Part shown: positions 4,695 to 60,740 of the stretch, piece after piece
Numbering within the stretch: the stretch's first letter is position 1
Layout: each line of letters starts with the position of its first letter
From: a virus
Taxonomy: Duplodnaviria > Heunggongvirae > Uroviricota > Caudoviricetes
Length of the DNA stretch: 64,000 bases
Virus record (IMG/VR): IMGVR_UViG_3300045988_138358
Reading direction: 5' to 3' (one strand)
Made by a program: the position numbers and the translations under genes
Notes under the pieces: generated by a model
Database searches by the model: none
What the model saw: only the letters and a program-made list of their open reading frames with translations
Told to the model about the DNA's origin: nothing

Positions 4695-7600
4695 TAATCC
4701 TCCAGCAGAGCATCCAGCGACGGGTCATTAATAGTTGTGCTCGCACGTGGTCGCGGCTGCGGCTGCGATGTTTTGACAACCTTATCTGGATCGCCTTTTG
4801 TATTATTTTTGTTCACATTCAGAAGGTCTTTCAGGATGGAACAGACGTTATCCAGCGCCTTCAACATAGCAGGATCGTTATTTGCAGTGTCAGTAGTTAA
4901 TGGTTGTCTTATTCCGCTTCGAGCAAGATCGGTTACAGTGGGAAGCTGTGGCGGCATAGCAAGAAAAGGTTCCTGCACGGCTGACGCAGTGCCAAATATG
5001 GCGTTATTTGCCTCAGTTGATATTCCTTTGATGCTATCGGCAGTTTGTTGAATGCCATTATTTAGCCAACCACCAGCACTTTTTGTAAGTGGGCTAATCG
5101 CCCTGGCGATTGTTGAATTCTGCCCTGTAGCCTGATAGACAAAATCATTTAATATGCCAGTGCCATCGATGCCACCAACAAGCTGTGAAACGTTATCACC
5201 AATTGCAGGTAATACAGCCGAACCAATGCGCTTTATGCCTGTTAATGACGAATCAAACAAAGAACCAAGAAATCCCTTATCTTCGCCGTCTATTACCTTA
5301 TTGCCATTGTCATAGACCGGAATCCCTTTTGAGTTTACAGGTGTTTTTTTATTCTCTGTTGGCTGTGCAGCGTCAGAGAGAAGATCGACCGAAGACATAT
5401 CGCGTTCAGGTGTCGGCCTTTTTTGTATAGCCTCCCTGATATCAGCTACCTGTGGTGCTTTTTTGAATCCAAAAGATTTTCCGGTTAAGCCGGATATTTT
5501 TTCAGTCAGAGCCTGATCCATTCCCTTCGCCTTTTCTGAAAGCGAAGATATAGAACCAAATGAAGTAGCCGACGCAAAATCCTTCACCAAGTCCAGACTT
5601 GTTCCAGCAAGACTGGTAGCCGCGCCGCCAAATAAATCACTTACTCCACTGATACCGCTTTCATTTATGGCGATTAACCGCTCAAGCAAACTCGATGGCG
5701 AGCCAGTATTAACATCAGCGTTCTCTGGAATAATCGGTTGTGGTCGGTTACCTGTTTTTTGTGGCTTTTTGGCTGCCTGGGCATGTTGTGCAACCTCAAT
5801 TGGCTTAGGTGTTGCTGTTGGGACTGCATTCAATACAGGTTGTGCCGGAGATGTACCATCAGCATATCTCACCTTGCGACCAACGCTATATTGCGAATCA
5901 CGAGCAATTAGCTGACCGCCATTCTCTTTCTGAATTTTATTAAGCCGCGCCAATGTTTCATCGGAGAAGCGCCCCTCCCAACGACCGGTATTTGCATTGA
6001 ACGCCCCAAGAGCATTCTTAATAAACTCATTATTAACCGCAGGGTTTCCGCCTTCTTTCGTCGCAATAGCACGAACTAATTGCGTCATAACCTCCGGGTT
6101 GCTGACATCTATTTTTTCATTAGGCGATACACCAAGATATTTACTGACGTTATCAATATATTGGTTAGTATTGTTCTCATTTGGCGGTGCCCATTTTGAA
6201 ATGATGCTGGATACTGTTTGCAGCTTCTGATACCCGGCGGCAGCACTTGTACCGTTGTAATAACTCGATACCTGGTTTGCCAATGCCCGAATCCCTTCTT
6301 CGGGCGTATTAAACCGCGCAAAACGCTGTTCGCCTTTCGCGTTCGGCGCTTCCAGTACCGCCCCCTCCTGATTTGCAAAAACCAGGTTCCCCAGGTTGTT
6401 ATTCCGGTAATTCCTGTTCTTGGCGTTGCTTCCGCCTATATTCAGATCAGCCGTTATTGTATTTTTTTCAGGCGCTTTAAATTCGTCTGGCGATTTGTAG
6501 CCGTGTTCACCCACGCCATCCTCACCACTGCGCCCGCCCTGTAGCTGTCGGGCCAGATCATTAATTGCGGCTACCGTTTGCTTGGTGCCATCTTCAACGG
6601 CTTTCTTAACCTGCGCAGTGCCTTCGCTGCTTGATGAGAACGATTCTTTTAGGCTGCTGAATACGTTTTTTGTCGTGTCTATAGAACTATTTATGCCACG
6701 AGCAATATCTCCAGTATCAAAATTCTGAAGTTTTTCACCAGCCCCCTCAAAGCCTAACGCAGAAATCCCTTTACCTATCAGGTTGGTTGCGCCAGAAACT
6801 AAGCCGCCCATATCAAGCACATTAGCTGTTGCGTAAGCCGATTTTTGCTGTCTGGACACAGCATCATCATCACTTAAGCCAAAAGCTGCCTTTTGCGCCT
6901 CTGTATCTGTGTAACCATCTATGGCGTCATATCCAGCCATTGCCAGCGAACCGATGATAGGGACCGCTCTTGCCGCTGTGGATGCTGCTGATTTAACACC
7001 TATTTTTGCTGCACTTTTGAGGGCTACAGATTCAGTTTTTTTCTTTGCAATGACTTCGCCGGTTTTAATGGTGGCATCTTCAGCCACAACACCAGCTGAC
7101 TTCACGGCCTTAGCAGTATTTTTTGTTTCCTTTGCAATCCCCTTTGATGTATCGCTGATAGTGCTTACATCTTTGGGTTTGCTGATCTTATTTTTAACTA
7201 CTTTTGCTGCTCCGACACCAGTGCCAGCCGCAGCGCTACCGGCAGCAACTTTTTCGCCAGCGGAGAGTGCTTTTTTCCCAAGATTGCGGCCTTTCCTTTT
7301 CGATTTGTTCCGTTTATTTTTTCCCGTCTGATCACCAATATTGATTTTATTTCTTCTGCTTGCTCGATTTTTCCAGAGATCACTTAAGCCGAACTTATTT
7401 CCAGAAGACACTGATTTCCGAAGCTTAACTATCTCGTCAGAAACATTTTCCAGACCATCAATTATTTTGTTGTCATTGGTCTGAAGGATTTTGGTTTGCT
7501 CTTCTACTGCTTGTGCGGATTTTGTCTCAACAGCGTTATTGAATGCTTTTGCAGATGTTGCTTTTTGAGAATTCACCGCCGCCGGATAAGTAATTACTGG

Positions 7601-49132: not shown

Positions 49133-49597
49133 TCACTCCACTACAAACCAGTCACATGCCAGTAAGTCGCCTACAGAAGGCGCCCACGGAACAACTACAC
49201 CTTGTGCATTTTTTAAGGCGAAATAAGCACCATACGGAACGAGATCGCCGGGGAAATATCCCTTAATGGCTTCCATTCGTGCCGGGTACTGTCCTTCAGG
49301 AACCAGCCAGCAGAATTGGTTTTCGCCGTTCCACCCGCGCCGGGCAACTTTCTTGCCATCCTTCAGCCACATCAGCGCGTCAGAAAAGTCGGCTGCTTCA
49401 AGGTCGATTTCTTCTTGCTGGGTGGTGATGCCACCAGCAGAAATAGTTACGCTCCCGGTAAGATTAATCATCACGCCGTTGTCATCCGTAATGATGACCG
49501 TGGTTCCATTTTTGGAGGCGTCGTTAACCAGGCCATAGCGTTCCTCAGATGATTTGGGAAGGAACTTAAAAAGCTCTTTCGTTGCCATGTTATTCAT
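49133..49597 (-). CDS. fusion protein with C-terminal DUF2829-like (Tad2-like) domain
   Basis: ORF track 154 aa; C-terminal ~90 aa (ALMWLKDGKKVARRGWNG .. VVPWAPSVGDLLACDWFVVE) match the DUF2829 hallmark pattern as I recall it. Confidence 0.55.
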   Translation of the reverse strand: MNNMATKELFKFLPKSSEERYGLVNDASKNGTTVIITDDNGVMINLTGSVTISAGGITTQQEEIDLEAADFSDALMWLKDGKKVARRGWNGENQFCWLVPEGQYPARMEAIKGYFPGDLVPYGAYFALKNAQGVVVPWAPSVGDLLACDWFVVE

Positions 49598-49611: not shown

Positions 49612-50106
49612 TTATAACTTTTCGTACTGAAGCGGTGAACGCTTAATTTCAAAGTGGCCTTCCGATGTGCTACCAAAGCCACCAGCGCCTCGCTCTGTTT
49701 CATCGAGTTCATCAACTTCTACCAGCGATACCGGTTCAACACGCTCAAAAATGCCTTGCATGACCGCCATTCCTGGCTTGAGGCAAACGCCTTCACCACC
49801 GGGATCTGTAATCAGTTTTGCCATGATTTCACCGCGATAATCGGAGTCGATAATTCCTACGCAGTTAGCCAGGCGAGTATGTTTTTTGCAGCCCAATCCG
49901 GAACGCGGATAGAGTTTCAGACACCAGCCGGGCGGGATCTCCATAGCCAGTCCGGTGTACACCCACCAGCTTGAGGAAATTGCACCATTGCTATCGACAC
50001 ATGGTTTTATTTCAACAGCCTCAAAATCCATCGCCGCCGATCCGGAGGTGGCATAAGCTGGAAGTTTTGCTGCCGGATGTAGGCGTTTCACTTTTACGTA
50101 AATCAT
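49612..50106 (-). CDS. dut: dUTPase (trimeric dUTP pyrophosphatase family)
   Basis: ORF track 164 aa; motifs SAAMDF, GIIDSDYRGE and RGAGGFGSTS. Confidence 0.8.
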   Translation of the reverse strand: MIYVKVKRLHPAAKLPAYATSGSAAMDFEAVEIKPCVDSNGAISSSWWVYTGLAMEIPPGWCLKLYPRSGLGCKKHTRLANCVGIIDSDYRGEIMAKLITDPGGEGVCLKPGMAVMQGIFERVEPVSLVEVDELDETERGAGGFGSTSEGHFEIKRSPLQYEKL

Positions 50107-52407: not shown

Positions 52408-53445
52408 ATGAGTAAGAAGTCGATCGAGAAAGAGTACAAACGGTTCCTGCAAACCGCTGAACGGTGGAAAGAGCTGGTGGTCGCAAACTCTGTTTTCCAT
52501 GATACCAGTTATTCCGGCGAGGAATTCCGCCATGTTGCACTAACACATGATCAGAATGTGCTAGAAGAAGCTGAAAAGTGCCTCACAGAATGGAAAGCCT
52601 TTGTTGACTTGTGCCGTAACGCTGACGGCAAAGCGTCTAACATTGTTGAGTCTGTATATTCTCCGATCCCATTCATTATCGAGGACACAAATCAAAGCAC
52701 GCATATTGTTGTGCAAAGCGCGACCACCACCCGCTCATTTACGCGCGAAAATCTGCTCAAAAAATATGATGCAATTATAAAGAAAAGCCTGAAAAACAAG
52801 ATATTTTCGCAGATTGTTGGTGCACTTGAAGAAGAGCGCCGTTTTTTCGCATCAGAACCTGAAGGGGAAGTTTACCGGGCGCGCAAAGATGGATACACAG
52901 ATGTAGTGCTTACAACAAACATTGAAGGCAGCAATGCTCTGTCACGATTCAGGGTAGGCGCACACGGAGCCTTAGTGTTCGCAAAACTTCCGAACACCAC
53001 AGTGCCCGTTGTTAATAATGTCGGCGAACGTCGCAGCATTACTATTTATTCTGGGGTTGAGTCGATACCTTGCGGCCTGCTTGGTGACTTTAGTCTCTAT
53101 CGCGTTCGCGATCTGGAGAAACACCAACCAAGCTATGTTGCGAAGTCATACATCTTGCGAAACATCGACATCCGCAATGAGAGCTTAAAGAACAAATCAG
53201 CCAAAATGCTTGAGGAAGCCGATCCGGCTATTCGCCATATCATTGAGCGTAAAATACAGACAGCACGCGAAGCGATGGCGAGACTGAATAAAATGGATCT
53301 GGAGTTGTTAGACGTAATGATGACATCCGGAGATGACCTGACAGGCATAAAACTGACAGACGCGCGGAAAAGATACGGTAAAACCATAGAAGAACGTTAC
53401 GGGTTCACTTTCTCCCAAACACAGCACGCCGCTAAACTCTGGTAA
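52408..53445 (+). CDS. hypothetical protein
   Basis: ORF track 345 aa; AT-rich upstream region; between lox-cre and the terminase genes. Confidence 0.4.
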   Translation: MSKKSIEKEYKRFLQTAERWKELVVANSVFHDTSYSGEEFRHVALTHDQNVLEEAEKCLTEWKAFVDLCRNADGKASNIVESVYSPIPFIIEDTNQSTHIVVQSATTTRSFTRENLLKKYDAIIKKSLKNKIFSQIVGALEEERRFFASEPEGEVYRARKDGYTDVVLTTNIEGSNALSRFRVGAHGALVFAKLPNTTVPVVNNVGERRSITIYSGVESIPCGLLGDFSLYRVRDLEKHQPSYVAKSYILRNIDIRNESLKNKSAKMLEEADPAIRHIIERKIQTAREAMARLNKMDLELLDVMMTSGDDLTGIKLTDARKRYGKTIEERYGFTFSQTQHAAKLW

Positions 53446-53516: not shown

Positions 53517-55025
53517 TCAAATATCCAGATCTGGCATTTCTACATCTGCAAGAACCTGATCGCGGAAGGTAGCCATTTCAGCGCCGATATCTTCATTAGC
53601 AGGAACATAGTCCACCAGCATTGTAAAGCAGTAGGTATCCCATCGGTCAGGTGATTTGATGTTCAGCTTTTGCCGCATGTGCTCCTTGCGCATCATCGCC
53701 ATCTTCCCTTCTTCATTAAGTAAAAAGGGGATTTTTGACGCTTGCTCTGCCGTTTTAGGGTCGCTGTCTATTCGCATACGACCTGACTTTATGGCATCAC
53801 GAGCCATAATATTTGCGTAGGCACGCTGGTTAACAAAACGCTCCTTGTCTTTGTTCGAAAACATGGGTTTCCCCCACCGAATCCGTACCGGATTAGCCCC
53901 ACGGCGCACCAGCTGCGCACAGGTATCTGAACCAAAACCGTCTGCGTCAACCGCGATTGTAATATTCGGGTATTTATCCGGCGTGCATTCGTTGTATATA
54001 AAGTCAGCAAAAGCCAGCGGGTCCATAGTCCCTGGCATTTCCATTACCTTAAAGTTAACAACACGCCGCTTTTCCCGGTGACCAGACACTTTACAGATAT
54101 TAAGAACTGACTTGTCTCGCCCGTTACCAACGTCAGCAGTAGCCACCCATCCCCAGTTTTTCTCCAACAACACCTTGCGCCGCGCAGCGCGATCGCATTC
54201 ATCACGACCAAGCAAATAGCCGTTAATCTCCCGAGGAAACTGACCAAGAACCTTGACCATGTACTCAATAGAATCGCGCCCGCCATATTCTAGGAGTTTC
54301 TGCCTGATGAATTGTGGTGTGACGAACGGTGATTCTTCTGAGTTAAGAACAATTGCTGTCCAGATCCCTTTCGGGTTGTCTGGGGTTTTAGCTTGAGAAT
54401 GGTGCGAATCGTAGAAATAACCACTTGGCCTTGTTGGCTGGGATAGCATCAACATTCGGTTATCTTCTTCAGTCAGAGCGCCAGTCATTACGCCGATCGC
54501 TTTATCAGATATACCTGATGCTTCATCCAGAATTAGAAGCAAATGTGCCGCGTGCTCCCCCGCCAGAGCTTCTTCGTTACCGAGTCGATAGCCTTTGCAG
54601 AGAACTTCCCAGATCCCCTTTCGAGAGCGTTCATAAAACATGGTGTCAGACAGGACAAAATAGGTCTGTAACCACCCATGACGCTTAACGGCATTCGCCC
54701 AATACTGTTTAACGTATTTGAATACACCTGTCTTAACCTGACCTATTTTGTTAGCAACAATGATGACACGGGCATCGGGGAACAGAATCAAATAAATCAG
54801 CAACAACATAGCCGTTAGCGACGATTTCCCTGTACCGTGACCAGAGGTAACAGTGGTTCTGCTCCCTTTTTGCTGTACGGACTGGATAATCTCCTGCTGC
54901 TGGTGGGAGGGAAACATCCCGAATATATCAACAACAGCCTGGGTAAAGTTGTAGCGGTATTTGATTACCATATCGCGCCAGCGTGGATCGCTGGTGACGC
55001 ATTTAATCTTGCGCCCACCAGCCAT
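53517..55025 (-). CDS. terminase large subunit (PacB-like)
   Basis: ORF track 502 aa; intact Walker A SGHGTGKS and Walker B ILDEAS; start overlaps upstream stop (TAATG). Confidence 0.8.
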   Translation of the reverse strand: MAGGRKIKCVTSDPRWRDMVIKYRYNFTQAVVDIFGMFPSHQQQEIIQSVQQKGSRTTVTSGHGTGKSSLTAMLLLIYLILFPDARVIIVANKIGQVKTGVFKYVKQYWANAVKRHGWLQTYFVLSDTMFYERSRKGIWEVLCKGYRLGNEEALAGEHAAHLLLILDEASGISDKAIGVMTGALTEEDNRMLMLSQPTRPSGYFYDSHHSQAKTPDNPKGIWTAIVLNSEESPFVTPQFIRQKLLEYGGRDSIEYMVKVLGQFPREINGYLLGRDECDRAARRKVLLEKNWGWVATADVGNGRDKSVLNICKVSGHREKRRVVNFKVMEMPGTMDPLAFADFIYNECTPDKYPNITIAVDADGFGSDTCAQLVRRGANPVRIRWGKPMFSNKDKERFVNQRAYANIMARDAIKSGRMRIDSDPKTAEQASKIPFLLNEEGKMAMMRKEHMRQKLNIKSPDRWDTYCFTMLVDYVPANEDIGAEMATFRDQVLADVEMPDLDI

Positions 55026-56389
55026 TAGTCATCCTCCGGCGGTTCTATCGCAATATCATCATCTCCGGCGTCATACCCTGCATCTGATGCATCATAATCA
55101 CCGTAAATTTCAGCCGTTGCCGAAGGGTCAATGTCCAACTCTTCATCGTTGGCCTCGAATTCCCCAGCCTTACGCTCGCCATTGTGGTCGTAATCTCCGC
55201 ACCCCAGATCTTCAACAATGGTTGCCACATCCGCCCGGCGCTCTGCCAGCCATTGCGGATGGTTAGCCTGAAGCGATGCAAACTCCTTCGCTTCTTTGTC
55301 CAGCTGTTCATCATCAACATCATTGATGTCAGAAACTGGAGGTTCGAGAAGAGTGATAGCTTTCGCCGCGCGCGCCGCGAGGATAGCCGGGACACTGACA
55401 CCCTGACGCTCGATGTATTCAGCAACACCGATATCGTCCAGCTCCTCGCGCTCACGCATACGTATAGCGGCGGCGATAACTCTGGCTGCGCGTGCGTCAG
55501 CGCCAATGCGATATTCAATCTCTTTGCCACGCTGTTCGGCCTGTAGGCGTGCTAATTCGAGTTTTTCTCTGGCCTCGGCCTCTCTGAATGCTTGCTGGCG
55601 AGCACCCTGACGAAGTTTTTCATCACCCTGTCGCAGCTTTTGTTCGGACTGATATATCGCTGCCAACCTACTGATAAAATCGTTCATGTAGTAGGCCGCG
55701 TCACTGATTAGACCGAGAAGTCGCTGCCCAGGGTGCATTCCTTCTGGCTGTTCATCACCCAGGGCGTCTATCTCCGCCTGTAGGCGTTCGGCCTCCTGAT
55801 CAACAATGCTTTGGTACTGAAGTGCGCGTTCTTGCGCCATTTGAATTGCTAACCGCAGGTGCTCTTCTGCGCCGTTCTTCATCATGTCGCGAGCCACACT
55901 CGTAGTGGGCAACGTGGCACGCTGCACAGCACCGCCAGGGATCATTGCTGAAGATCCCTCGATTTTTGAGGCGCATTTATCTTCGGTGGGGATCATTTTC
56001 GCCATTTTTTCGCGCAATGATCTCCTGACAGATTCTTTTATCTCATTGTTATTATTTGCATTATTTTCATGATCCGAAGTTTTCTTTCTCGGCATACTTC
56101 GGAAAGAACCTGTGCCCTGCGAATTGTCAATTTCTGTAAATTTTGTTGTTTCTGTACCCTCTTCTGGTCTTTTTTTTGCTCTTCCTGCCCGTTTTTTTTG
56201 AGGTGATTTGGTGCTTTTTTTTGTAGTCTTCACCTGCGACCGCACCTCATTTTTTTTCATATTGAGATGCTTTCTGGCGGTATTGAAGCTAAGGTCGTGT
56301 TGCTCGCAGTATTCCTTTACGGTGATCCCTTTTTCTTCACGCAACGCTATAAATTTGGCGCGGTGCTCTTCCCAATTAACCAGACTCAT
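55025..56389 (-). CDS. terminase small subunit-like (PacA-like) protein
   Basis: ORF track 454 aa; N-terminal HTH-like segment, acidic C-terminus, coupled to the large subunit gene. Confidence 0.5.
   Translation of the reverse strand: MSLVNWEEHRAKFIALREEKGITVKEYCEQHDLSFNTARKHLNMKKNEVRSQVKTTKKSTKSPQKKRAGRAKKRPEEGTETTKFTEIDNSQGTGSFRSMPRKKTSDHENNANNNNEIKESVRRSLREKMAKMIPTEDKCASKIEGSSAMIPGGAVQRATLPTTSVARDMMKNGAEEHLRLAIQMAQERALQYQSIVDQEAERLQAEIDALGDEQPEGMHPGQRLLGLISDAAYYMNDFISRLAAIYQSEQKLRQGDEKLRQGARQQAFREAEAREKLELARLQAEQRGKEIEYRIGADARAARVIAAAIRMREREELDDIGVAEYIERQGVSVPAILAARAAKAITLLEPPVSDINDVDDEQLDKEAKEFASLQANHPQWLAERRADVATIVEDLGCGDYDHNGERKAGEFEANDEELDIDPSATAEIYGDYDASDAGYDAGDDDIAIEPPEDD
55940..56075. 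other. GATC hexamer cluster inside the PacA-like gene (candidate pac site)
   Basis: Five GATC within ~135 bp as GGATCA, AGATCC, GGATCA, TGATCT, TGATCC. Confidence 0.35.
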
Positions 56390-56778
56390 AAAGCAACACC
56401 ACGCTTTTTAACGGCGGCATTCCACAGCTTATTCGCCATGTCCACCAGCTCTCGTTGCTCTTTTCGCGCCTGTTCGACTGATTTCCTGCTACAGTTTTTA
56501 ACCAGTAAGCTACCGTATTCAGGGGTGCGCCCGCGCACCTTGAACTGATATCCGTTCAGGCCATGCAACCAGTATTTCCGTGGGTAAACACGATCATCAA
56601 GCTCACAAATAGCTCGGCTTGACCGCACAAAATGCCGAATGATGTTGGTTACACTTACTCGTGAAACATGAAGGTGAGGATATTTTTCTTTAGCTAGAGT
56701 GGTGATTTCGGTGACTGTCAGATAGCAGTCAGCCCTAATCATGATATCCGCAATTTCTGCGCTGCTGATATGCTCCAT
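56386..56778 (-). CDS. hypothetical protein
   Basis: ORF track 130 aa; overlaps the PacA-like start; operator-like site upstream. Confidence 0.3.
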   Translation of the reverse strand: MEHISSAEIADIMIRADCYLTVTEITTLAKEKYPHLHVSRVSVTNIIRHFVRSSRAICELDDRVYPRKYWLHGLNGYQFKVRGRTPEYGSLLVKNCSRKSVEQARKEQRELVDMANKLWNAAVKKRGVAL

Positions 56779-56856
56779 TAATCCCCCAGGCAGGAAATGA
56801 CCGAGGGGATGATAATGAGAATGTTATTTCTGTATAGACTGGCAAAAAGTTGGTTA

Positions 56857-56886
56857 TATTAGAAAATTAATTCCATTCATCTAACA
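56857..56886. promoter_or_regulatory. operator-like inverted repeat TATTAGA-N16-TCTAACA
   Basis: Between the 56887 gene stop and the 56778 gene start. Confidence 0.5.
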
Positions 56887-57279
56887 CTACCAGCGAGATA
56901 AGCGAACGACGTGTTTTACCTTAGCGATCCACTTACCACGTGAGTTATTAATTACGGCCTGCGCCACCTTTAAGCTGACTTCAAAATCAGCCTTACGACC
57001 ATCAGAATCCACCAGCGTTGCACCGTCTATTTCCGGCAGGCTTAAATAATCCTGTTCTACCTCTAATGGCATTGACGGCTCTCTGAATGGTGTCAATTGC
57101 CGAGCTTTCCAGATAAAGCGAACTCTCAATCCCCTATAAGCCATTACCATGTAGCCTGTTATCGTGCTCTTATGGCCTGCATCAGTACGCGCAGCATTAC
57201 ACGATACAATCTTACAGGTGACGATATTCCACTCCACGTTGGAGACTTCGTGAATGCTTAATTTTGTTGTCTCGTACAT
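56887..57279 (-). CDS. hypothetical protein
   Basis: ORF track 130 aa. Confidence 0.3.
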   Translation of the reverse strand: MYETTKLSIHEVSNVEWNIVTCKIVSCNAARTDAGHKSTITGYMVMAYRGLRVRFIWKARQLTPFREPSMPLEVEQDYLSLPEIDGATLVDSDGRKADFEVSLKVAQAVINNSRGKWIAKVKHVVRLSRW

Positions 57280-57854
57280 CAGAATGCCTCCCAGTCAGTT
57301 GCGATAATATCCACGCCAGTTGCGAACCAGTCTGTCTGCGCCTGTAAATCCCCATTCATCATTACCAGGCGAGGCATAACCATCACATCGCACCCTTCCA
57401 CAATATCGAATGCCTCTTCCGGCAAGAATTCGAAGAGCTTTTCTTTGCTGCCAATGCTGCCACGGAACATCGATAAATAGCTCCCTTTAGGCCATGATGC
57501 CCGGCGGGCATCCAGCCCCTTCATCATCCAGAACATGGCGGCAGAAAAATTGATGTTCTTTTTGGCGATGAAAACATTATTGGCTTCTGTTTGCTTCAGA
57601 AACTTAATTAGCCTTGCCATCGACTCGGATAACGCTACGTATGGCTCATGATTGGCTGCGGACACGCTCACACCATGTAATCCAACACTGACTACCGTCA
57701 TATCGCCGCTTTGAGCGGTTTCAATGTTGACACCTTTGCGAACTAACGAGGCATAAAGTTCCTCTCGCTTTTGTGTCCAGCGTTCCCGCTGACCGATGAA
57801 GTCACTCAATATGAGGTCTGCTTCTGCATACGCGTTATCGTTCGCCGTTAACAT
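57279..57854 (-). CDS. fusion protein with C-terminal DUF2829-like (Tad2-like) domain, more divergent
   Basis: ORF track 191 aa; C-terminal half (AAMFWMMKGLDARRASWPKG .. PRLVMMNGDLQAQTDWFATGVDIIATDWEAF) follows the same pattern. Confidence 0.4.
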   Translation of the reverse strand: MLTANDNAYAEADLILSDFIGQRERWTQKREELYASLVRKGVNIETAQSGDMTVVSVGLHGVSVSAANHEPYVALSESMARLIKFLKQTEANNVFIAKKNINFSAAMFWMMKGLDARRASWPKGSYLSMFRGSIGSKEKLFEFLPEEAFDIVEGCDVMVMPRLVMMNGDLQAQTDWFATGVDIIATDWEAF

Positions 57855-57974
57855 AACGTCTCCTTTTTACACGCGCGACCATCCCTCGGTTAAACCGATA
57901 GAGATGTCGAAACTTCGTATTAATTAAGGGTTACAGCCTGAGCGGCTATATGATGAATTGAAAGGAGTTGTGGC

Positions 57975-57989
57975 GGTGGTGCCTCCACC
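57975..57989. ncRNA. short hairpin GGTGG-TGCCT-CCACC
   Basis: One of three hairpins with identical loop and covarying stems. Confidence 0.3.
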
Positions 57990-58307
57990 TGCCAGGTTAG
58001 CCACTCCTGGCGACGTCACTTATCAGAACGTAGTGAATGAAAATGGCTTCGTCACGAGCGCATAGCCGCAATTACCACAACGGAAACGGCGCTCACGCTA
58101 ATTAAACGCCTTTTCCTGTTGTGCGCCGTACTCTTCCGGCTGTCACACCGAATCGCCAGGGTGGTGAGTCCTCGGTCCGACGATATGAACGGGGCTTGCA
58201 CATTCCGGCTACCTGGTTTGTTGCCTGAGCTAGGGGAAAAGGTAACCCCTTTAACGTCACCAGACCGCTAACGACGCATGTGCCATACGCCGTGTTACAA
58301 CCAAATA

Positions 58308-58383
58308 TGGTGGCCCCTACCGGACTTGAACCGGTGACCGTGCGATTATGAGTCGCCAGCTCTAACCACTGAGCTAAAGGGCC
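58308..58383 (-). tRNA. tRNA with CAU anticodon (Ile2 lysidine-type or Met)
   Basis: Hand-folded cloverleaf, 7-bp acceptor stem, T-loop TTCAAGT, CCA encoded; close to E. coli ileX as I recall it. Confidence 0.75.
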
Positions 58384-58392
58384 AGATTACTG

Positions 58393-58521
58393 TTAATTCC
58401 GCTTACGCTTTTTGCCAGAACCGCGTAAGGCTTTTGCCGCTTGCTCGATCCCATATGCAACCACCAGCAGAAATAAAAATGTCCAACCAGGGTTCTTATC
58501 GGCAAAGGCCCAAAAATCCAT
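58393..58521 (-). CDS. small hydrophobic protein, 42 aa
   Basis: Hand-found; one hydrophobic helix and basic tail; ends 10 nt before the CAU tRNA. Confidence 0.25.
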   Translation of the reverse strand: MDFWAFADKNPGWTFLFLLVVAYGIEQAAKALRGSGKKRKRN

Positions 58522-58572
58522 CACTTGCAGCTACCTTTTAAGACAAAACGCCATTGCTGTTAGATTGCGGTG

Positions 58573-58587
58573 CCTGGTGCCTCCAGG
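58573..58587. ncRNA. short hairpin CCTGG-TGCCT-CCAGG
   Basis: Second of three hairpins with identical loop and covarying stems. Confidence 0.3.
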
Positions 58588-58795
58588 TGACGTTAACCAG
58601 TTAACAATTAACGCCGGGATGTTTGATTTAACCACTAAGGAGGATTGTTTTAACTGTTCCGCGTGCGCTTAGCCGCATTCACCGCAATGGTAAGAGCACT
58701 TGGCTGGCTGGGCGGCGATGACGCCTGTACGCATTTGGTGATCCGGTTCTGCTTCCGGCATTCGCTTAATTAGCCAAATACTCTTAACGTTGCGC

Positions 58796-58882
58796 TGGCG
58801 GAGAGTAATGGAATCGAACCATCATCGCTTGCGCAATGGGACGGTTTTCAAGACCGCTTGAGCACCATGCTCCCTACTCTCC
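58796..58882 (-). tRNA. tRNA-Ser-like (UGA anticodon, long variable arm), divergent
   Basis: Hand-folded: 7-bp acceptor stem, anticodon loop CTTGAAA, long variable arm, T-loop TTCGATT, discriminator G, CCA encoded; D-arm unusual. Confidence 0.55.
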
Positions 58883-59028
58883 GGCCGTTGTGGTGGCCGG
58901 TACTGAATCTCCGGCATACGGTGCAGCCAATTAGGACTACGGACGATCACCGCTCGCGAAAGGGAAGATTTGCGGCCGCATTTCCCTAACATCCAAGAAA
59001 GCTATCGCATCAGTCTGCGAATCCACCA

Positions 59029-59118
59029 CAACGTTGAGAACACTGGTTGTCACGCTGCAACGCAACATTTATTCGTAGATTGGGATATGACCCCGTTACG
59101 TCAGTGTTCTCAACGTTG
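59029..59118. ncRNA. long hairpin: perfect 17-bp inverted repeats around a 56-nt interior
   Basis: Arms at 59029-59045 and 59102-59118 are exact reverse complements. Confidence 0.4.
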
Positions 59119-59265
59119 TAGTACCGGTTACGGTTCCGGCCAGGCCTCTTCCTCAACGGGGTATTCTCCATACGGACTACCGTTTATTGGTCGTTCCTGC
59201 GGTTTATGTTGTGAAGCCAGATGCTTATCTTCTGGTTGCTTCAAAGAGCTGCACTTCATCACAAC

Positions 59266-59339
59266 GGTAAGGGTACTTCGTAGGGATTCGAACCCTCTGC
59301 CAAGCACGGCGATCTCCGACGTCGCAAAATACCCTTACC
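59266..59339 (-). ncRNA. tRNA-like element: 10-bp closing stem around a canonical T-arm, no canonical cloverleaf
   Basis: Closing stem GGTAAGGGTA/TACCCTTACC with internal T-arm-like hairpin; I could not fold it as a standard tRNA. Confidence 0.35.
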
Positions 59340-59347
59340 TGTTGTGT

Positions 59348-59423
59348 TGGTGCCGATTAACGGACTCGAACCGCTGACATCCTGCTTACAAGGCAGGCGC
59401 TCTACCAACTGAGCTAAACCGGC
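59348..59423 (-). tRNA. tRNA-Thr (UGU)
   Basis: Hand-folded cloverleaf; anticodon loop CTTGTAA; T-loop TTCGAGT; CCA encoded. Confidence 0.75.
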
Positions 59424-59425
59424 AT

Positions 59426-59502
59426 TGGCGATGGTGGGTGGATTCGAACCACCGACCGACAGCTTAGAAGGCTGCTGCTCTATCCTACTGAGCTACACCA
59501 TC
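59426..59502 (-). tRNA. tRNA-Arg (UCU)
   Basis: Hand-folded cloverleaf; perfect 7-bp acceptor stem; anticodon loop CTTCTAA; 2 nt from tRNA-Thr. Confidence 0.75.
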
Positions 59503-60005
59503 ACTTGCCGGTTACGTCTCCGGCGAGGGCTTCCACCTCCGTATGCTTTTCGGCGCACCGCGCCCTGGCTGCAATTCGGTAACAGGGGATGCACAACCCT
59601 GGCTTCCAGCGTGATTAGCGCCTTCAGCATGACGGGATATACCCGTAACCAACAAACTTTCCCATATACCATCAAACAATGGCTGTTACGCGGGAGGGAC
59701 GTAACAGGTAAGGGCGCTGACCAGAAAGACCTGACCCTTCTCATTCATCTGGTTAATCACACCAGCGCCCTTGCCTGTTATGCCTCCCCGTTCCCTAATA
59801 CACAGACGGGGACACTCTGCGGTCGATTTTTTGACGGGGGACGACTCATACCCCGTGGCGTCTGGCTTCTTAGGCCGCTACCATCATCAGATCATCGTTT
59901 GCATTTACTTTAATGGTCGGTTTCTAAACCGCCGCAAAGCCGCTAACCATGACGAAAACCCTAAAAAAGCCCACCCGAAGATGGGCAAATACGCTACATC
60001 TCACA

Positions 60006-60084
60006 CAAGAAAGAAGCCGACTGCCTGAGCTGGATTCACTTTCAAATGCCCGCAGAAAGGGAACACAAGTCGGCTTCTTTCTTG
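60006..60084. ncRNA. long hairpin: perfect 17-bp inverted repeats around a 45-nt interior
   Basis: Arms at 60006-60022 and 60068-60084. Confidence 0.4.
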
Positions 60085-60212
60085 ATGCGGCACTCTCTCC
60101 GCCCGTCACCGCTCTGTCTCGGTTGTCGCGTTTGCCACGCCAGCCATAACGAGGTTTAAAGTCTTTGCACGTTTCCATCACTCGACTGCCGTCTGTGGCT
60201 GTTCGTTGCAGC

Positions 60213-60227
60213 GGGGGTGCCTCCCCC
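60213..60227. ncRNA. short hairpin GGGGG-TGCCT-CCCCC
   Basis: Third of three hairpins with identical loop and covarying stems. Confidence 0.3.
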
Positions 60228-60300
60228 TGGGGATATCCCCGGCCTTACCCCATTCTTTCAAGACACAATGCAAGGCCGCATCCGCATAGGTGCATTACCG

Positions 60301-60367
60301 CAACATTAAGGAGACTTAGGGCAAAAGGTAATCGCCACAAAAAAATCCCTATGCCTCCTTAATGTTG
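60301..60367. ncRNA. long hairpin: 13-bp perfect inverted repeats, 41-nt interior with nested TAGGG/CCCTA pairing
   Basis: Seen directly. Confidence 0.35.
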
Positions 60368-60375
60368 AGGATGTG

Positions 60376-60434
60376 CATTGATGATGATTCGATGCGGCGA
60401 GTCCCGTTACTCTCTGCCGGACCATCATCAATGA
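60376..60434. ncRNA. hairpin: 11-bp perfect inverted repeats (CATTGATGATG / CATCATCAATG), 37-nt interior
   Basis: Seen directly. Confidence 0.35.
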
Positions 60435-60576
60435 ACATCTTAAAAAGACCTTCCGTGGCTCAACATGTCTTGTCGTTTACTCCGTAAAGTGCTCTCTCTG
60501 AAACCACTTTACGCACTAAACCTGCTGAACTTTGGCTTGCTCGGTGCCAAAGCGAATCCCTGTATGCATGTAATTT

Positions 60577-60584
60577 TCTAACAC
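60577..60584. promoter_or_regulatory. operator-like half-site TCTAACAC in the tRNA island
   Basis: Recurrent motif. Confidence 0.35.
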
Positions 60585-60709
60585 TTTAATTTGTTATTTG
60601 CTGGTGGGCGAACAACAACCAATAAGTGACTATCAAGCCCAGCAAGCGAAATGTGGCAACGCTCCACCAGCAAGGAAAATTCTAAGTTAAGTTACTCTCA
60701 CAATCAATA

Positions 60710-60740
60710 TGTTCGTTTGGTGAAATTAGATTTCTAACAC
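60710..60740. promoter_or_regulatory. operator-like degenerate palindrome (TGTTCGT-N16-TCTAACAC) at the 3' end of the 60742 gene
   Basis: Recurrent motif. Confidence 0.4.

What the first reader, a model, noticed from the sequence alone, without database searches (positions are those of the whole stretch)
57279..57854. Second, more divergent Tad2-like fusion protein
The C-terminal half (AAMFWMMKGLDARRASWPKG ... PRLVMMNGDLQAQTDWFATGVDIIATDWEAF) matches the same pattern after a ~95-aa unrelated N-terminal region. Two divergent copies suggest different ligand specificities or domain-shuffled sponge proteins.
Basis: inference. Interest (0 to 1): 0.65.

Follow-up and report, generated by a model that had tools for sequence, protein, structure and literature searches.

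The report
Divergent two-domain Tad2-like phage protein
A gene of a D6-type (P1-family) phage-plasmid encodes a 191-residue protein whose C-terminal half is a real but unusually divergent relative of the phage Tad2 "sponges" that soak up bacterial immune signals; its ligand pocket is altered and its function is untested.

Summary

The clade is small: 28 hits among 1.84 billion representative proteins. Every context long enough to judge is a P1/D6-like phage-plasmid, with the gene just upstream of lpa-pacA-pacB. It usually overlaps a conserved 130-aa partner ORF. It is under strong purifying selection (dN/dS 0.09).

The pocket is only partly canonical. Both ligand-clamping Trp residues and the Asp are kept. 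The phosphate-binding Asn-Gly of all solved Tad2s is replaced by Pro with a one-residue deletion. The cyclic-dinucleotide pocket is not conserved (0 of 9 residues).

My best reading is a Tad2-type signal sponge with changed specificity. That reading is inference, not shown. It is a new variant of a known kind, of moderate interest.

The parts
57279..57854 (-). Complete CDS, 191 aa; homologue of phage D6 orf6 (YP_009914683, 'hypothetical protein'); PHROG 7362
   Evidence: ORF list; 92% identical to D6 5054..5629; phrog_7362 full length, E = 1e-125; dN/dS 0.09 against D6
57561..57854 (-). N-terminal module, residues 1-98: helix 4-20, helix 30-39, strands 43-49, 52-59 and 62-68, long helix 71-91; clade-specific; fold weakly like phage ABA-sandwich/1r7l and dsRBD
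57285..57551 (-). Tad2-like (PF11195/DUF2829) domain, residues 102-190. Pocket positions: W121, P122 (replaces Asn, with Gly deleted), M165, N167, D169, T174, W176, T179, V181, D182
57860..57866 (-). Shine-Dalgarno AAAGGAG, 5 nt upstream of the ATG
   Evidence: Read directly from the sequence; conserved in D6 and L002
57855..58045 (-). Conserved 5' leader or upstream region of the gene; more conserved than the CDS between distant relatives; contains hairpins; role unknown
   Evidence: Alignment of upstream regions; RNA fold z = -2.4; no Rfam family; no sigma-70-like promoter found
56887..57279 (-). Partner ORF, 130 aa (D6 orf5, PHROG 7004, no Pfam family); its ATG overlaps the target's TGA (TGATG), suggesting translational coupling
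   Evidence: junction; phrog_7004 E = 6e-73; homologous partner follows the target homologue in L002, L003, L004, L006, L007 and L008; absent in L005; dN/dS 0.11
56854..56873 (.). Copy of a repeated motif (ATGTTAGAAAAYTAAT-like) between the partner ORF and lpa; probable D6-type C1 operator at the lpa promoter; marks the downstream end of the two-gene unit
   Evidence: Motif found at 8 or more intergenic sites, including directly upstream of c1; promoter-like site at 56836..56809 (-); P1 has operator Olpa at the equivalent place
49133..49597 (-). The other, canonical Tad2-like gene of the window (copy 1, 154 aa; GWNG loop intact; closest to ModTad2)
   Evidence: PF11195 E = 2e-22; ModTad2 9eib E = 2.5e-20; 172 phage records hold relatives

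Best explanation
The gene encodes a soluble two-domain protein of D6-type phage-plasmids. Its C-terminal domain is a true but divergent homologue of the Tad2 sponge fold. The most likely mechanism is the Tad2 one. The domain would oligomerise (Tad2 proteins are homotetramers) and form Trp-lined pockets between subunits. Those pockets would sequester a nucleotide-derived immune signal of a signalling defence system (Thoeris, CBASS or Pycsar type). That would protect the phage-plasmid alongside the canonical Tad2 (copy 1) encoded 8 kb away. The phosphate-clamping Asn-Gly of all solved Tad2s is replaced here by Pro with a one-residue deletion, and the adenine-contacting Thr is Val. So the ligand is probably not bound in the canonical 3'cADPR mode, and the specificity is likely different. 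The N-terminal module, and the co-translated 130-aa partner, add an unknown function; scaffolding or partner binding is my guess. SHOWN: homology, fold, residue pattern, purifying selection, conserved position and conserved partner. INFERRED: oligomerisation, ligand binding, anti-defence role and any role of the N-domain or partner.
For: Homology and fold:
- PF11195 match above cut-off for the target and for all 15 family members.
- Family profile hits SptTad2, HgmTad2/AcrIIA7, ModTad2 and SPO1 Tad2 at E = 1.8e-7 to 6e-6, and nothing else significant.

Pocket:
- The Trp pair that sandwiches the ligand in SPO1 Tad2 (W25, W73) and HgmTad2 (W21, W87) is invariant across the clade (W121, W176).
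- D79/D93 is kept as D182, D67 as D169, and S76 becomes T179 (contacts from bioRxiv 10.1101/2023.05.01.538930 and PMC10680739).

Constraint: dN/dS is 0.09 overall, 0.07 for the N-domain and 0.13 for the C-domain.

Precedents:
- The Tad2 family is experimentally very plastic in ligand choice: 3'cADPR, His-ADPR, N7-cADPR, cUMP/cCMP and CDNs, using two different pockets (PMC12393519).
- Phages often carry several loop-diversified Tad2-like paralogues. L013 has four in a row and L008 has two.
- N-terminally extended Tad2 proteins exist, including a solved 158-aa AcrIIA7.
Against: - The Asn-Gly that binds the diphosphate in every solved Tad2 is missing (P122 plus a deletion), and that position is not conserved within the clade (P/R/M/N/D/G/H).
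- T78 becomes V181, H71 becomes T174 and T65 becomes N167.
- D182 is Ser or Cys in 4 of 15 members.
- None of the 9 HgmTad2 cyclic-dinucleotide contacts is conserved.
- The conserved Trp residues could be kept for folding or packing rather than for ligand binding.
- PMC10680739 reports the gcADPR site as conserved in about 99% of the Tad2 homologues it analysed, so this clade is an outlier.
- The gene sits in a fixed slot next to late-regulation and packaging genes, with a conserved partner. That could point to a role unrelated to sponging.
- Oligomeric state, ligand binding and expression timing could not be tested.
Confidence: 0.45

Rival explanations
1. A repurposed Tad2 fold. The protein no longer sequesters a signal. 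It works with its co-translated 130-aa partner as a two-gene module specific to P1/D6-type phage-plasmids. Examples would be a protein-targeting anti-defence pair, or a maintenance/addiction-type cassette occupying the slot where P1 carries phd-doc-pdcAB.
For: - TGATG overlap with the partner.
- The partner is homologous and adjacent even where the target homologue is only 21-35% identical.
- Fixed position just upstream of lpa in every sufficiently long P1/D6-like context examined.
- P1 has the phd-doc addiction module and pdcA/B at that position.
- The canonical phosphate clamp is lost.
- Both genes are under purifying selection.
Against: - One relative (L005, 42% identity) lacks the partner, and lpa follows directly. 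More distant members (L010, L011) have no homologous partner.
- No hit of either protein to PADLOC defence models or to any toxin or antitoxin family in Pfam or NCBIfam.
- The ligand-clamping Trp pair is invariant, which is not required by this model.
Confidence: 0.25
2. A canonical Tad2: an ordinary anti-Thoeris sponge binding 3'cADPR (1''-3' gcADPR) like SPO1 Tad2, merely diverged in sequence.
For: Same fold and domain family. W/W/D core contacts are retained. A survey reports 'Tad2 AcrIIA7 (anti-Thoeris)' in 93% of D6-like phage-plasmids (bioRxiv 10.1101/2025.09.12.675607), although which gene was scored is not stated.
Against: The Asn-Gly diphosphate clamp is absent, with a shortened loop, and the adenine contact Thr is Val. 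The window already carries a canonical GWNG-loop Tad2 (copy 1), which is the more likely source of that survey hit. The target reaches solved Tad2s only at E = 0.74 by single-sequence search.
Confidence: 0.12
3. A 'MW1434 family type I toxin-antitoxin toxin', as NCBI names some homologues.
For: The name is attached to homologues in RefSeq plasmids. The gene lies where P1 has an addiction module.
Against: The label goes back to a purely bioinformatic listing of an 81-aa S. aureus prophage protein, and the paper's text mentions no toxicity test of it (PMC6266405). Type I toxins are small hydrophobic membrane peptides (established knowledge). This protein is 191 aa, folds as two globular domains and has no membrane-like segment (maximum 19-residue hydropathy 1.2). 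NCBIfam gives no hit for the target.
Confidence: 0.03
4. A decaying or non-functional paralogue of the canonical Tad2 gene.
For: Divergent sequence; a canonical pocket motif is lost.
Against: dN/dS is 0.09 across both domains. The architecture is conserved down to 20% identity. There is a strong RBS, and 125 PLSDB plasmids carry it, 121 of them over at least 80% of its length. The AF2 model is confident.
Confidence: 0.02

Closest known systems
Tad2 (Thoeris anti-defence 2; Pfam PF11195/DUF2829): SPO1 Tad2 (8SME), HgmTad2/AcrIIA7 (8KBI), SptTad2 (8WJD), ModTad2 (8V3E, 9EIB)
   Different: About twice the size, because of a folded 98-aa N-terminal module. The GWNGKG loop is SWP-KG (Asn-Gly lost, one residue shorter). 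Thr78 becomes Val. The β2-β5 insertion is intermediate in length (about 31 aa, against 24 in SPO1 and 41 in Hgm) and has none of the CDN contacts. It has a conserved overlapping partner gene. It is restricted to P1/D6-like phage-plasmids. No activity has been demonstrated.
Copy 1 of the same window (49133..49597, 154 aa), ModTad2 clade
   Same: Both are N-terminally extended Tad2-like proteins of the same phage-plasmid.
   Different: Copy 1 has the canonical GWNG loop and matches ModTad2 at E = 2.5e-20. Its relatives occur in 172 phage records across many hosts, whereas the target occurs only in D6 among phage records. The N-terminal parts are unrelated, and the shared domain is 26% identical.
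Single-domain 'W-P/A-x-G' loop variants of DUF2829 (for example P0023, P0024, P0027, P0028, P0031) and the tandem Tad2-like arrays such as L013
   Same: Same shortened loop lacking Asn-Gly; same C-terminal W...D-[LMI]-[LMI]-A-x-D-W motif; uncharacterised.
   Different: They lack the N-terminal module and the partner ORF, and they occur in unrelated phages or metagenomic contigs.
Phage ABA sandwich domain / PDB 1R7L (B. cereus phage protein) and the dsRBD fold, for the N-terminal module only
   Different: No sequence-level relationship (no Pfam hit at E ≤ 5 in 15 members). Z stays below 8, and Foldseek E is only 0.04. Unlike RNA-binding dsRBDs, the module is mostly acidic or neutral.

Membership tests
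Tad2-like domain family (Pfam PF11195 / DUF2829) | Significant match to the family profile | tested here: met
   E = 1.5e-9, 38.7 bits against a 25-bit cut-off, residues 102-190. 15 of 15 clade members match. The clade profile hits all solved Tad2 proteins at E = 1.8e-7 to 6e-6.
Tad2-like domain family (Pfam PF11195 / DUF2829) | Tad2 fold (N-terminal helix plus antiparallel sheet with short helices in the loops) | tested here: met
Functional Tad2 sponge (SPO1/Hgm/Mod type) | Pair of Trp residues that clamp the ligand (SPO1 W25/W73; Hgm W21/W87) | tested here: met
   W121 and W176, invariant in all 15 clade members.
Functional Tad2 sponge (SPO1/Hgm/Mod type) | Asn(-Gly) of the β1-β2 loop that binds the diphosphate (SPO1 N26; Hgm N22/G23; GWNGKG motif) | tested here: not met
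   SWP-KG: Pro122 replaces Asn and the Gly is deleted. The position varies within the clade (P/R/M/N/D/G/H).
Functional Tad2 sponge (SPO1/Hgm/Mod type) | Asp contacting the ribose hydroxyls (SPO1 D79; Hgm D93) and neighbouring Ser/Thr (S76, T78) | tested here: inconclusive
   D182 is present in the target and in 11 of 15 members (Ser or Cys in the rest). S76 becomes T179 (conservative). T78 becomes V181, losing the hydrogen bond.
Functional Tad2 sponge (SPO1/Hgm/Mod type) | Second (cyclic-dinucleotide / cUMP) pocket in the β2-β5 insertion (Hgm R31, P32, D34, L36, K46, S47, F70, T71, N85) | tested here: not met
   0 of 9 positions identical (F130, R131, S133, G135, E142, F143, V159, M160, T174). 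The insertion is about 31 aa, against 41 aa in Hgm. This pocket is optional in the family (SPO1 Tad2 lacks it).
Functional Tad2 sponge (SPO1/Hgm/Mod type) | Homotetramer with ligand pockets at subunit interfaces | not testable with these tools
   Only single-chain prediction was available.
Functional Tad2 sponge (SPO1/Hgm/Mod type) | Binds and sequesters an immune signal; relieves Thoeris, CBASS or Pycsar defence | not testable with these tools
   Needs biochemistry and phage assays.
Phage ABA sandwich domain (1R7L-like), N-terminal module | Sequence-profile match to the Pfam family | tested here: not met
   No Pfam hit other than PF11195 in any of 15 members at E ≤ 5. The N-domain profile finds nothing meaningful in the PDB.
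Phage ABA sandwich domain (1R7L-like), N-terminal module | Same fold | tested here: inconclusive
dsRBD (double-stranded RNA-binding domain), N-terminal module | α-β-β-β-α fold with a basic RNA-binding surface | tested here: not met
Type I toxin-antitoxin toxin ('MW1434 family', NCBI name) | Small hydrophobic membrane-active peptide | tested here: not met
   191 aa, two globular domains, maximum 19-residue hydropathy 1.2. The name rests on a bioinformatic list only.

The most novel reading that the evidence does not exclude
The clade could be a new functional class built on the Tad2 fold. Its remodelled Trp-lined pocket (no Asn-Gly clamp) would capture an immune or regulatory small molecule not yet known as a sponge target. 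Alternatively it would sense such a molecule and signal through the clade-specific N-terminal module and the co-translated 130-aa partner. Either way it would be a two-gene counter-defence or maintenance module peculiar to P1/D6-type phage-plasmids, sitting where P1 carries phd-doc.
Probability: 0.15. Interest if true: 0.7.

Novelty: new variant of a known kind. Interest (0 to 1): 0.4.

Why it matters
Tad2 sponges are the most ligand-versatile known viral inhibitors of bacterial signalling immunity. New specificities (His-ADPR, N7-cADPR, cUMP) have each been found by testing divergent homologues, and ModTad2 was itself used as bait to identify a new immune signal.

This clade has an intact Trp clamp but a rebuilt phosphate-binding loop. 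It is carried next to a canonical Tad2 on phage-plasmids that are common in pathogenic E. coli, Shigella and Salmonella. That makes it a concrete candidate for a sponge with a new ligand, and possibly a handle to fish that ligand out of infected cells.

If it turns out not to bind any signal, it would show that the PF11195 label ("Tad2-like", which anti-defence annotation may build on) over-predicts anti-Thoeris function. Either result is useful, but neither would overturn current understanding.

Tried and rejected
- Single-sequence PDB search of the target gave only E = 0.74 to SptTad2. A family profile was needed.
- NCBIfam and PADLOC gave nothing for the target or its partner.
- The N-domain profile against the PDB gave only spurious ankyrin-repeat word matches.
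- The dsRBD idea for the N-domain was rejected on charge and lack of a basic motif.
- The ABA-sandwich idea has no sequence support.
BFVD gave no significant hit.
- The P1 C1-operator consensus has no match in the window at ≤3 mismatches. I found no sigma-70-like promoter and recognised no P1-type late-promoter arrangement by eye upstream of the gene. Expression timing is therefore unresolved.
- Rfam has nothing for the conserved 5' leader.
- The transcriptome paper mentioning Tad2 concerns a lambda-like prophage, not D6.
- The original D6 genome paper is not in the library.
- The 'type I TA toxin' label was traced and rejected.
- A separate search with the N-domain alone was judged unnecessary. 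The exhaustive full-length profile search is local and would already have reported hits confined to the N-domain.

Full report
**1. The observation**

Window 57279..57854 (minus strand) is an ATG-initiated ORF of 191 codons. A strong Shine-Dalgarno sequence (AAAGGAG, 57860..57866) precedes it.

Pfam-A places residues 102-190 in PF11195 (Tad2-like, formerly DUF2829). The match is E = 1.5e-9 and 38.7 bits, against a gathering score of 25. PHROGs puts the whole protein in phrog_7362, of unknown function.

Its residues 70-153 match PF11195 at E = 2e-22. The two proteins align only over this domain: 26% identity over 86 residues, E = 0.001.

**2. What genome this is**

The region is 92% identical in DNA to Escherichia phage D6, a P1-family plasmid prophage. 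In D6 the gene is orf6, a "hypothetical protein". It is followed by orf5, then lpa (late promoter activator), pacA, pacB and, on the other strand, c1. The window has the same order:
- partner ORF at 56887..57279
- lpa at 56386..56778 (PF25716)
- pacA at 55025..56389
- pacB at 53517..55025

tblastn finds the protein in only D6 among 50,697 phage records. It finds it in 125 PLSDB plasmids: Escherichia 97, Salmonella 16, Shigella 6, Pantoea 4 and Enterobacter 2. The listed records are 75-95 kb, and 123 of the 125 are predicted non-mobilizable, which fits D6-like phage-plasmids. There the protein is annotated "hypothetical protein" or "MW1434 family type I TA system toxin".

**3. How solid the Tad2 assignment is**

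By single-sequence search the target barely sees solved Tad2 structures (SptTad2, E = 0.74). Copy 1 hits ModTad2 at 2.5e-20.

I built the family. A word-indexed search gave only close relatives. An exhaustive HMMER profile search of 1.84 billion representative proteins gave only 28 hits at E ≤ 1e-3. About a dozen of them have the same two-domain layout, at identities down to 20%.
- A profile of these 15 sequences hits SptTad2 (1.8e-7), HgmTad2/AcrIIA7 (1.5e-6), ModTad2 (2.3e-6) and SPO1 Tad2 (6e-6). Nothing else is significant.
- All 15 members match PF11195 individually.
- An AlphaFold2 model built on this alignment is confident (mean pLDDT 87).

The C-terminal half is a Tad2-fold domain.

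**4. The N-terminal module**

Residues 1-98 fold on their own with high confidence (pLDDT 88.7). The order of elements is helix 4-20, helix 30-39, three strands (43-49, 52-59, 62-68) and a long helix 71-91.
- No Pfam family matches it in any of the 15 members, even at E ≤ 5.
- Its profile finds nothing meaningful in the PDB.
- In the exhaustive local profile search, the only hits confined to the N-terminal region were two fragments (a 41-aa piece and a truncated 167-aa protein), so the module was not seen outside this clade.
- In BFVD no hit is significant. The best global superposition is a "Phage ABA sandwich domain-containing protein" (TM 0.63/0.60, E = 0.04).

The module is acidic or neutral in most members, unlike RNA-binding dsRBDs. 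I conclude that it is a clade-specific α/β module with a dsRBD-like/ABA-sandwich-like topology and unknown function. There is no evidence that it is a shuffled mobile domain.

**5. The ligand pocket, residue by residue**

Published contacts are as follows.
- SPO1 Tad2 with 1''-3' gcADPR: W25, N26, W73 and D79, plus T78, I63 and T65, with waters held by D67, H71 and S76 (bioRxiv 10.1101/2023.05.01.538930).
- HgmTad2 gcADPR pocket: W21, N22, G23, M76, A78, T82, V84, W87, L88, S90, T92 and D93.
- HgmTad2 separate cyclic-dinucleotide pocket: R31, P32, D34, L36, K46, S47, F70, T71 and N85 (PMC10680739).

I rebuilt the sequences of the solved proteins from the HMMER alignments, and the numbering reproduces every published residue. 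I then aligned them with copy 1, the clade and the weaker hits.

The target maps as follows (SPO1 numbering first):

| SPO1 Tad2 | Target |
|---|---|
| W25 | W121 |
| N26 | P122 |
| G27 | deleted |
| I63 | M165 |
| T65 | N167 |
| D67 | D169 |
| H71 | T174 |
| W73 | W176 |
| S76 | T179 |
| T78 | V181 |
| D79 | D182 |

- The aromatic clamp and the Asp survive. W121 and W176 are invariant in the clade.
- The Asn-Gly that holds the diphosphate in every solved Tad2 is gone, in a loop one residue shorter. That position is not conserved within the clade.
- None of the nine CDN-pocket residues is conserved.
- The same "W-P/A-x-G" short loop occurs in several single-domain DUF2829 proteins (P0023, P0024, P0027, P0028, P0031).
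- One of them lies in a phage contig with four consecutive Tad2-like genes, all with non-canonical loops (L013).

PMC10680739 states that the gcADPR site is conserved in all but about 1% of the Tad2 homologues it analysed. This clade is therefore an outlier.

**6. Context and constraint**

Every relative whose contig was long enough to show context lies in a P1/D6-like element, just upstream of lpa-pacA-pacB-c1. The relatives are listed by identity to the target:

| Relative | Identity | Locus |
|---|---|---|
| P0008 | 55% | L002 |
| P0011 | 42% | L005 |
| P0013 | 33% | L007 |
| P0016 | 21% | L008 |
| P0018 | 24% | L011 |

P1 itself has phd-doc-pdcA-pdcB in that slot.

In the window the target's TGA overlaps the ATG of the 130-aa partner (TGATG).
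- A homologous partner follows the gene in L002, L003, L004, L006, L007 and L008. Pairwise E is 2e-17 for L006 and 3e-6 for L008.
- It is absent in L005, where lpa follows directly. L010 and L011 have no homologous partner.
- The partner has no Pfam, NCBIfam or PADLOC match and only close relatives.

Both genes are under strong purifying selection. Window against D6 gives dN/dS 0.09 for the target (0.07 N-domain, 0.13 C-domain) and 0.11 for the partner.

**7. Regulation (unresolved)**

A repeated motif, ATGTTAGAAAAYTAAT, occurs at eight or more intergenic sites. These include directly upstream of c1 and between the partner ORF and lpa, where P1 has operator Olpa. It is probably the D6-type C1 operator. 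None lies upstream of the target.

I found no sigma-70-like promoter there. A terminator-like hairpin lies at 58110..58088. The roughly 190-nt leader is better conserved than the coding sequence between distant relatives. It has no Rfam match and only modest predicted structure. Whether the gene is expressed in the prophage state, early or late therefore remains open.

**8. Mechanism**

The best-supported reading (confidence about 0.45) is a Tad2-type sponge whose specificity differs from the canonical 3'cADPR mode.

*Shown:*
- homology and fold
- the retained Trp/Trp/Asp core
- loss of the Asn-Gly clamp
- purifying selection
- the conserved genomic slot and partner

*Inferred:*
- tetramerisation
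- ligand capture
- an anti-defence role
- any role of the N-module or partner

Two points of precedent make the inference reasonable. The Tad2 family has been shown to bind 3'cADPR, His-ADPR, N7-cADPR, cUMP/cCMP and CDNs, using two different pockets (PMC12393519). Phages also often carry several diversified paralogues.

The main rival (about 0.25) is a repurposed fold acting with the partner as a lineage-specific two-gene module. A plain anti-Thoeris Tad2 (about 0.12) is disfavoured by the loop change and by the presence of copy 1. The NCBI "type I TA toxin" name is unfounded for this protein. A decaying paralogue is contradicted by dN/dS.

**9. Comparison and novelty**

Membership of the PF11195 domain family is met on both sequence and fold. 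Membership of the functional Tad2 sponge class is open. One defining pocket feature was tested and met (the Trp clamp). One was tested and not met (the Asn-Gly clamp). One was inconclusive (Asp/Ser/Thr). The decisive features, tetramer formation and binding, are not testable here.

A 2025 survey already notes "Tad2 AcrIIA7" in 93% of D6-like phage-plasmids (bioRxiv 10.1101/2025.09.12.675607). It does not say which gene was scored, and copy 1 is the likelier source.

No paper found in the held library describes this two-domain clade, its altered loop or its partner. The original D6 genome paper is not held. I rate it a new variant of a known kind, of moderate interest (0.4). It is a good candidate for a sponge with a new ligand, but it is not surprising in kind.

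Noticed in passing
window 26147, 35978, 36629, 40727, 50979, 52377, 56854, 61973 (about 16-20 nt each): A repeated motif, ATGTTAGAAAA(C/T)TAAT(T), occurs at eight or more intergenic sites. These include directly upstream of c1 (52408..53445), between the partner ORF and lpa, and upstream of the pmgS-like gene. The P1 C1-operator consensus has no match in the window at ≤3 mismatches. This is probably the operator of the D6-type (heteroimmune) C1 repressor.
   Followed up: partly
window 57855..58045 (-): The 5' leader of the target gene is much better conserved between the window, D6 and L002 than the coding sequence (55% protein identity in L002). It contains hairpins, one with a variable loop just before the RBS. 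There is no Rfam match, and the fold z-score is only -2.4. It could be a regulatory RNA or a protein-binding site.
   Followed up: partly
window 49133..49597 (-): Copy 1 is a close relative of ModTad2 (E = 2.5e-20), the sponge shown to bind His-ADPR (type II Thoeris) and cUMP/cCMP (Pycsar). It has an intact GWNG loop and its own ~65-aa N-terminal extension. It lies next to a dUTPase gene (49612..50106).
   Followed up: partly
window 58308..59502 (-): A tRNA cluster on the same strand upstream of the target: Met(cat), Ser(tga), Thr(tgt) and Arg(tct). The D6 record annotates Ser, Thr and Asn at the corresponding place. There is a sub-threshold STnc100-like sRNA match at 58566..58686 (39.4 bits against a 47-bit gathering score). 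About 1.2 kb (59500..60740) has no convincing ORF.
   Followed up: no
L013 5001..7270 (Logan SRR25758460 contig): Four consecutive Tad2-like genes in one phage early region, all with non-canonical loops (CWPKG, LWKNG, EWEDV, GWWSS/AWRSK). The last (328 aa) contains two Tad2-like domains in tandem. This looks like an array of diversified sponge-like paralogues.
   Followed up: partly
L008 413..931 and 6001..7037: A distant P1-like element (89.7 kb contig) carries a clade member (P0016, 21% identity) with its overlapping partner. It also carries a second, different Tad2-like ORF (172 aa, loop EGWSAGG), and a ParM/StbA-type partition gene between lpa and pacA.
   Followed up: no
PLSDB/RefSeq annotation of homologues (for example NZ_CP069647.1, NZ_CP026816.1): NCBI names some homologues 'MW1434 family type I TA system toxin'. 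The name traces to a bioinformatic list of S. aureus phiSa2 genes and does not fit a 191-aa soluble two-domain protein. It is likely a propagated misannotation of DUF2829 proteins.
   Followed up: yes
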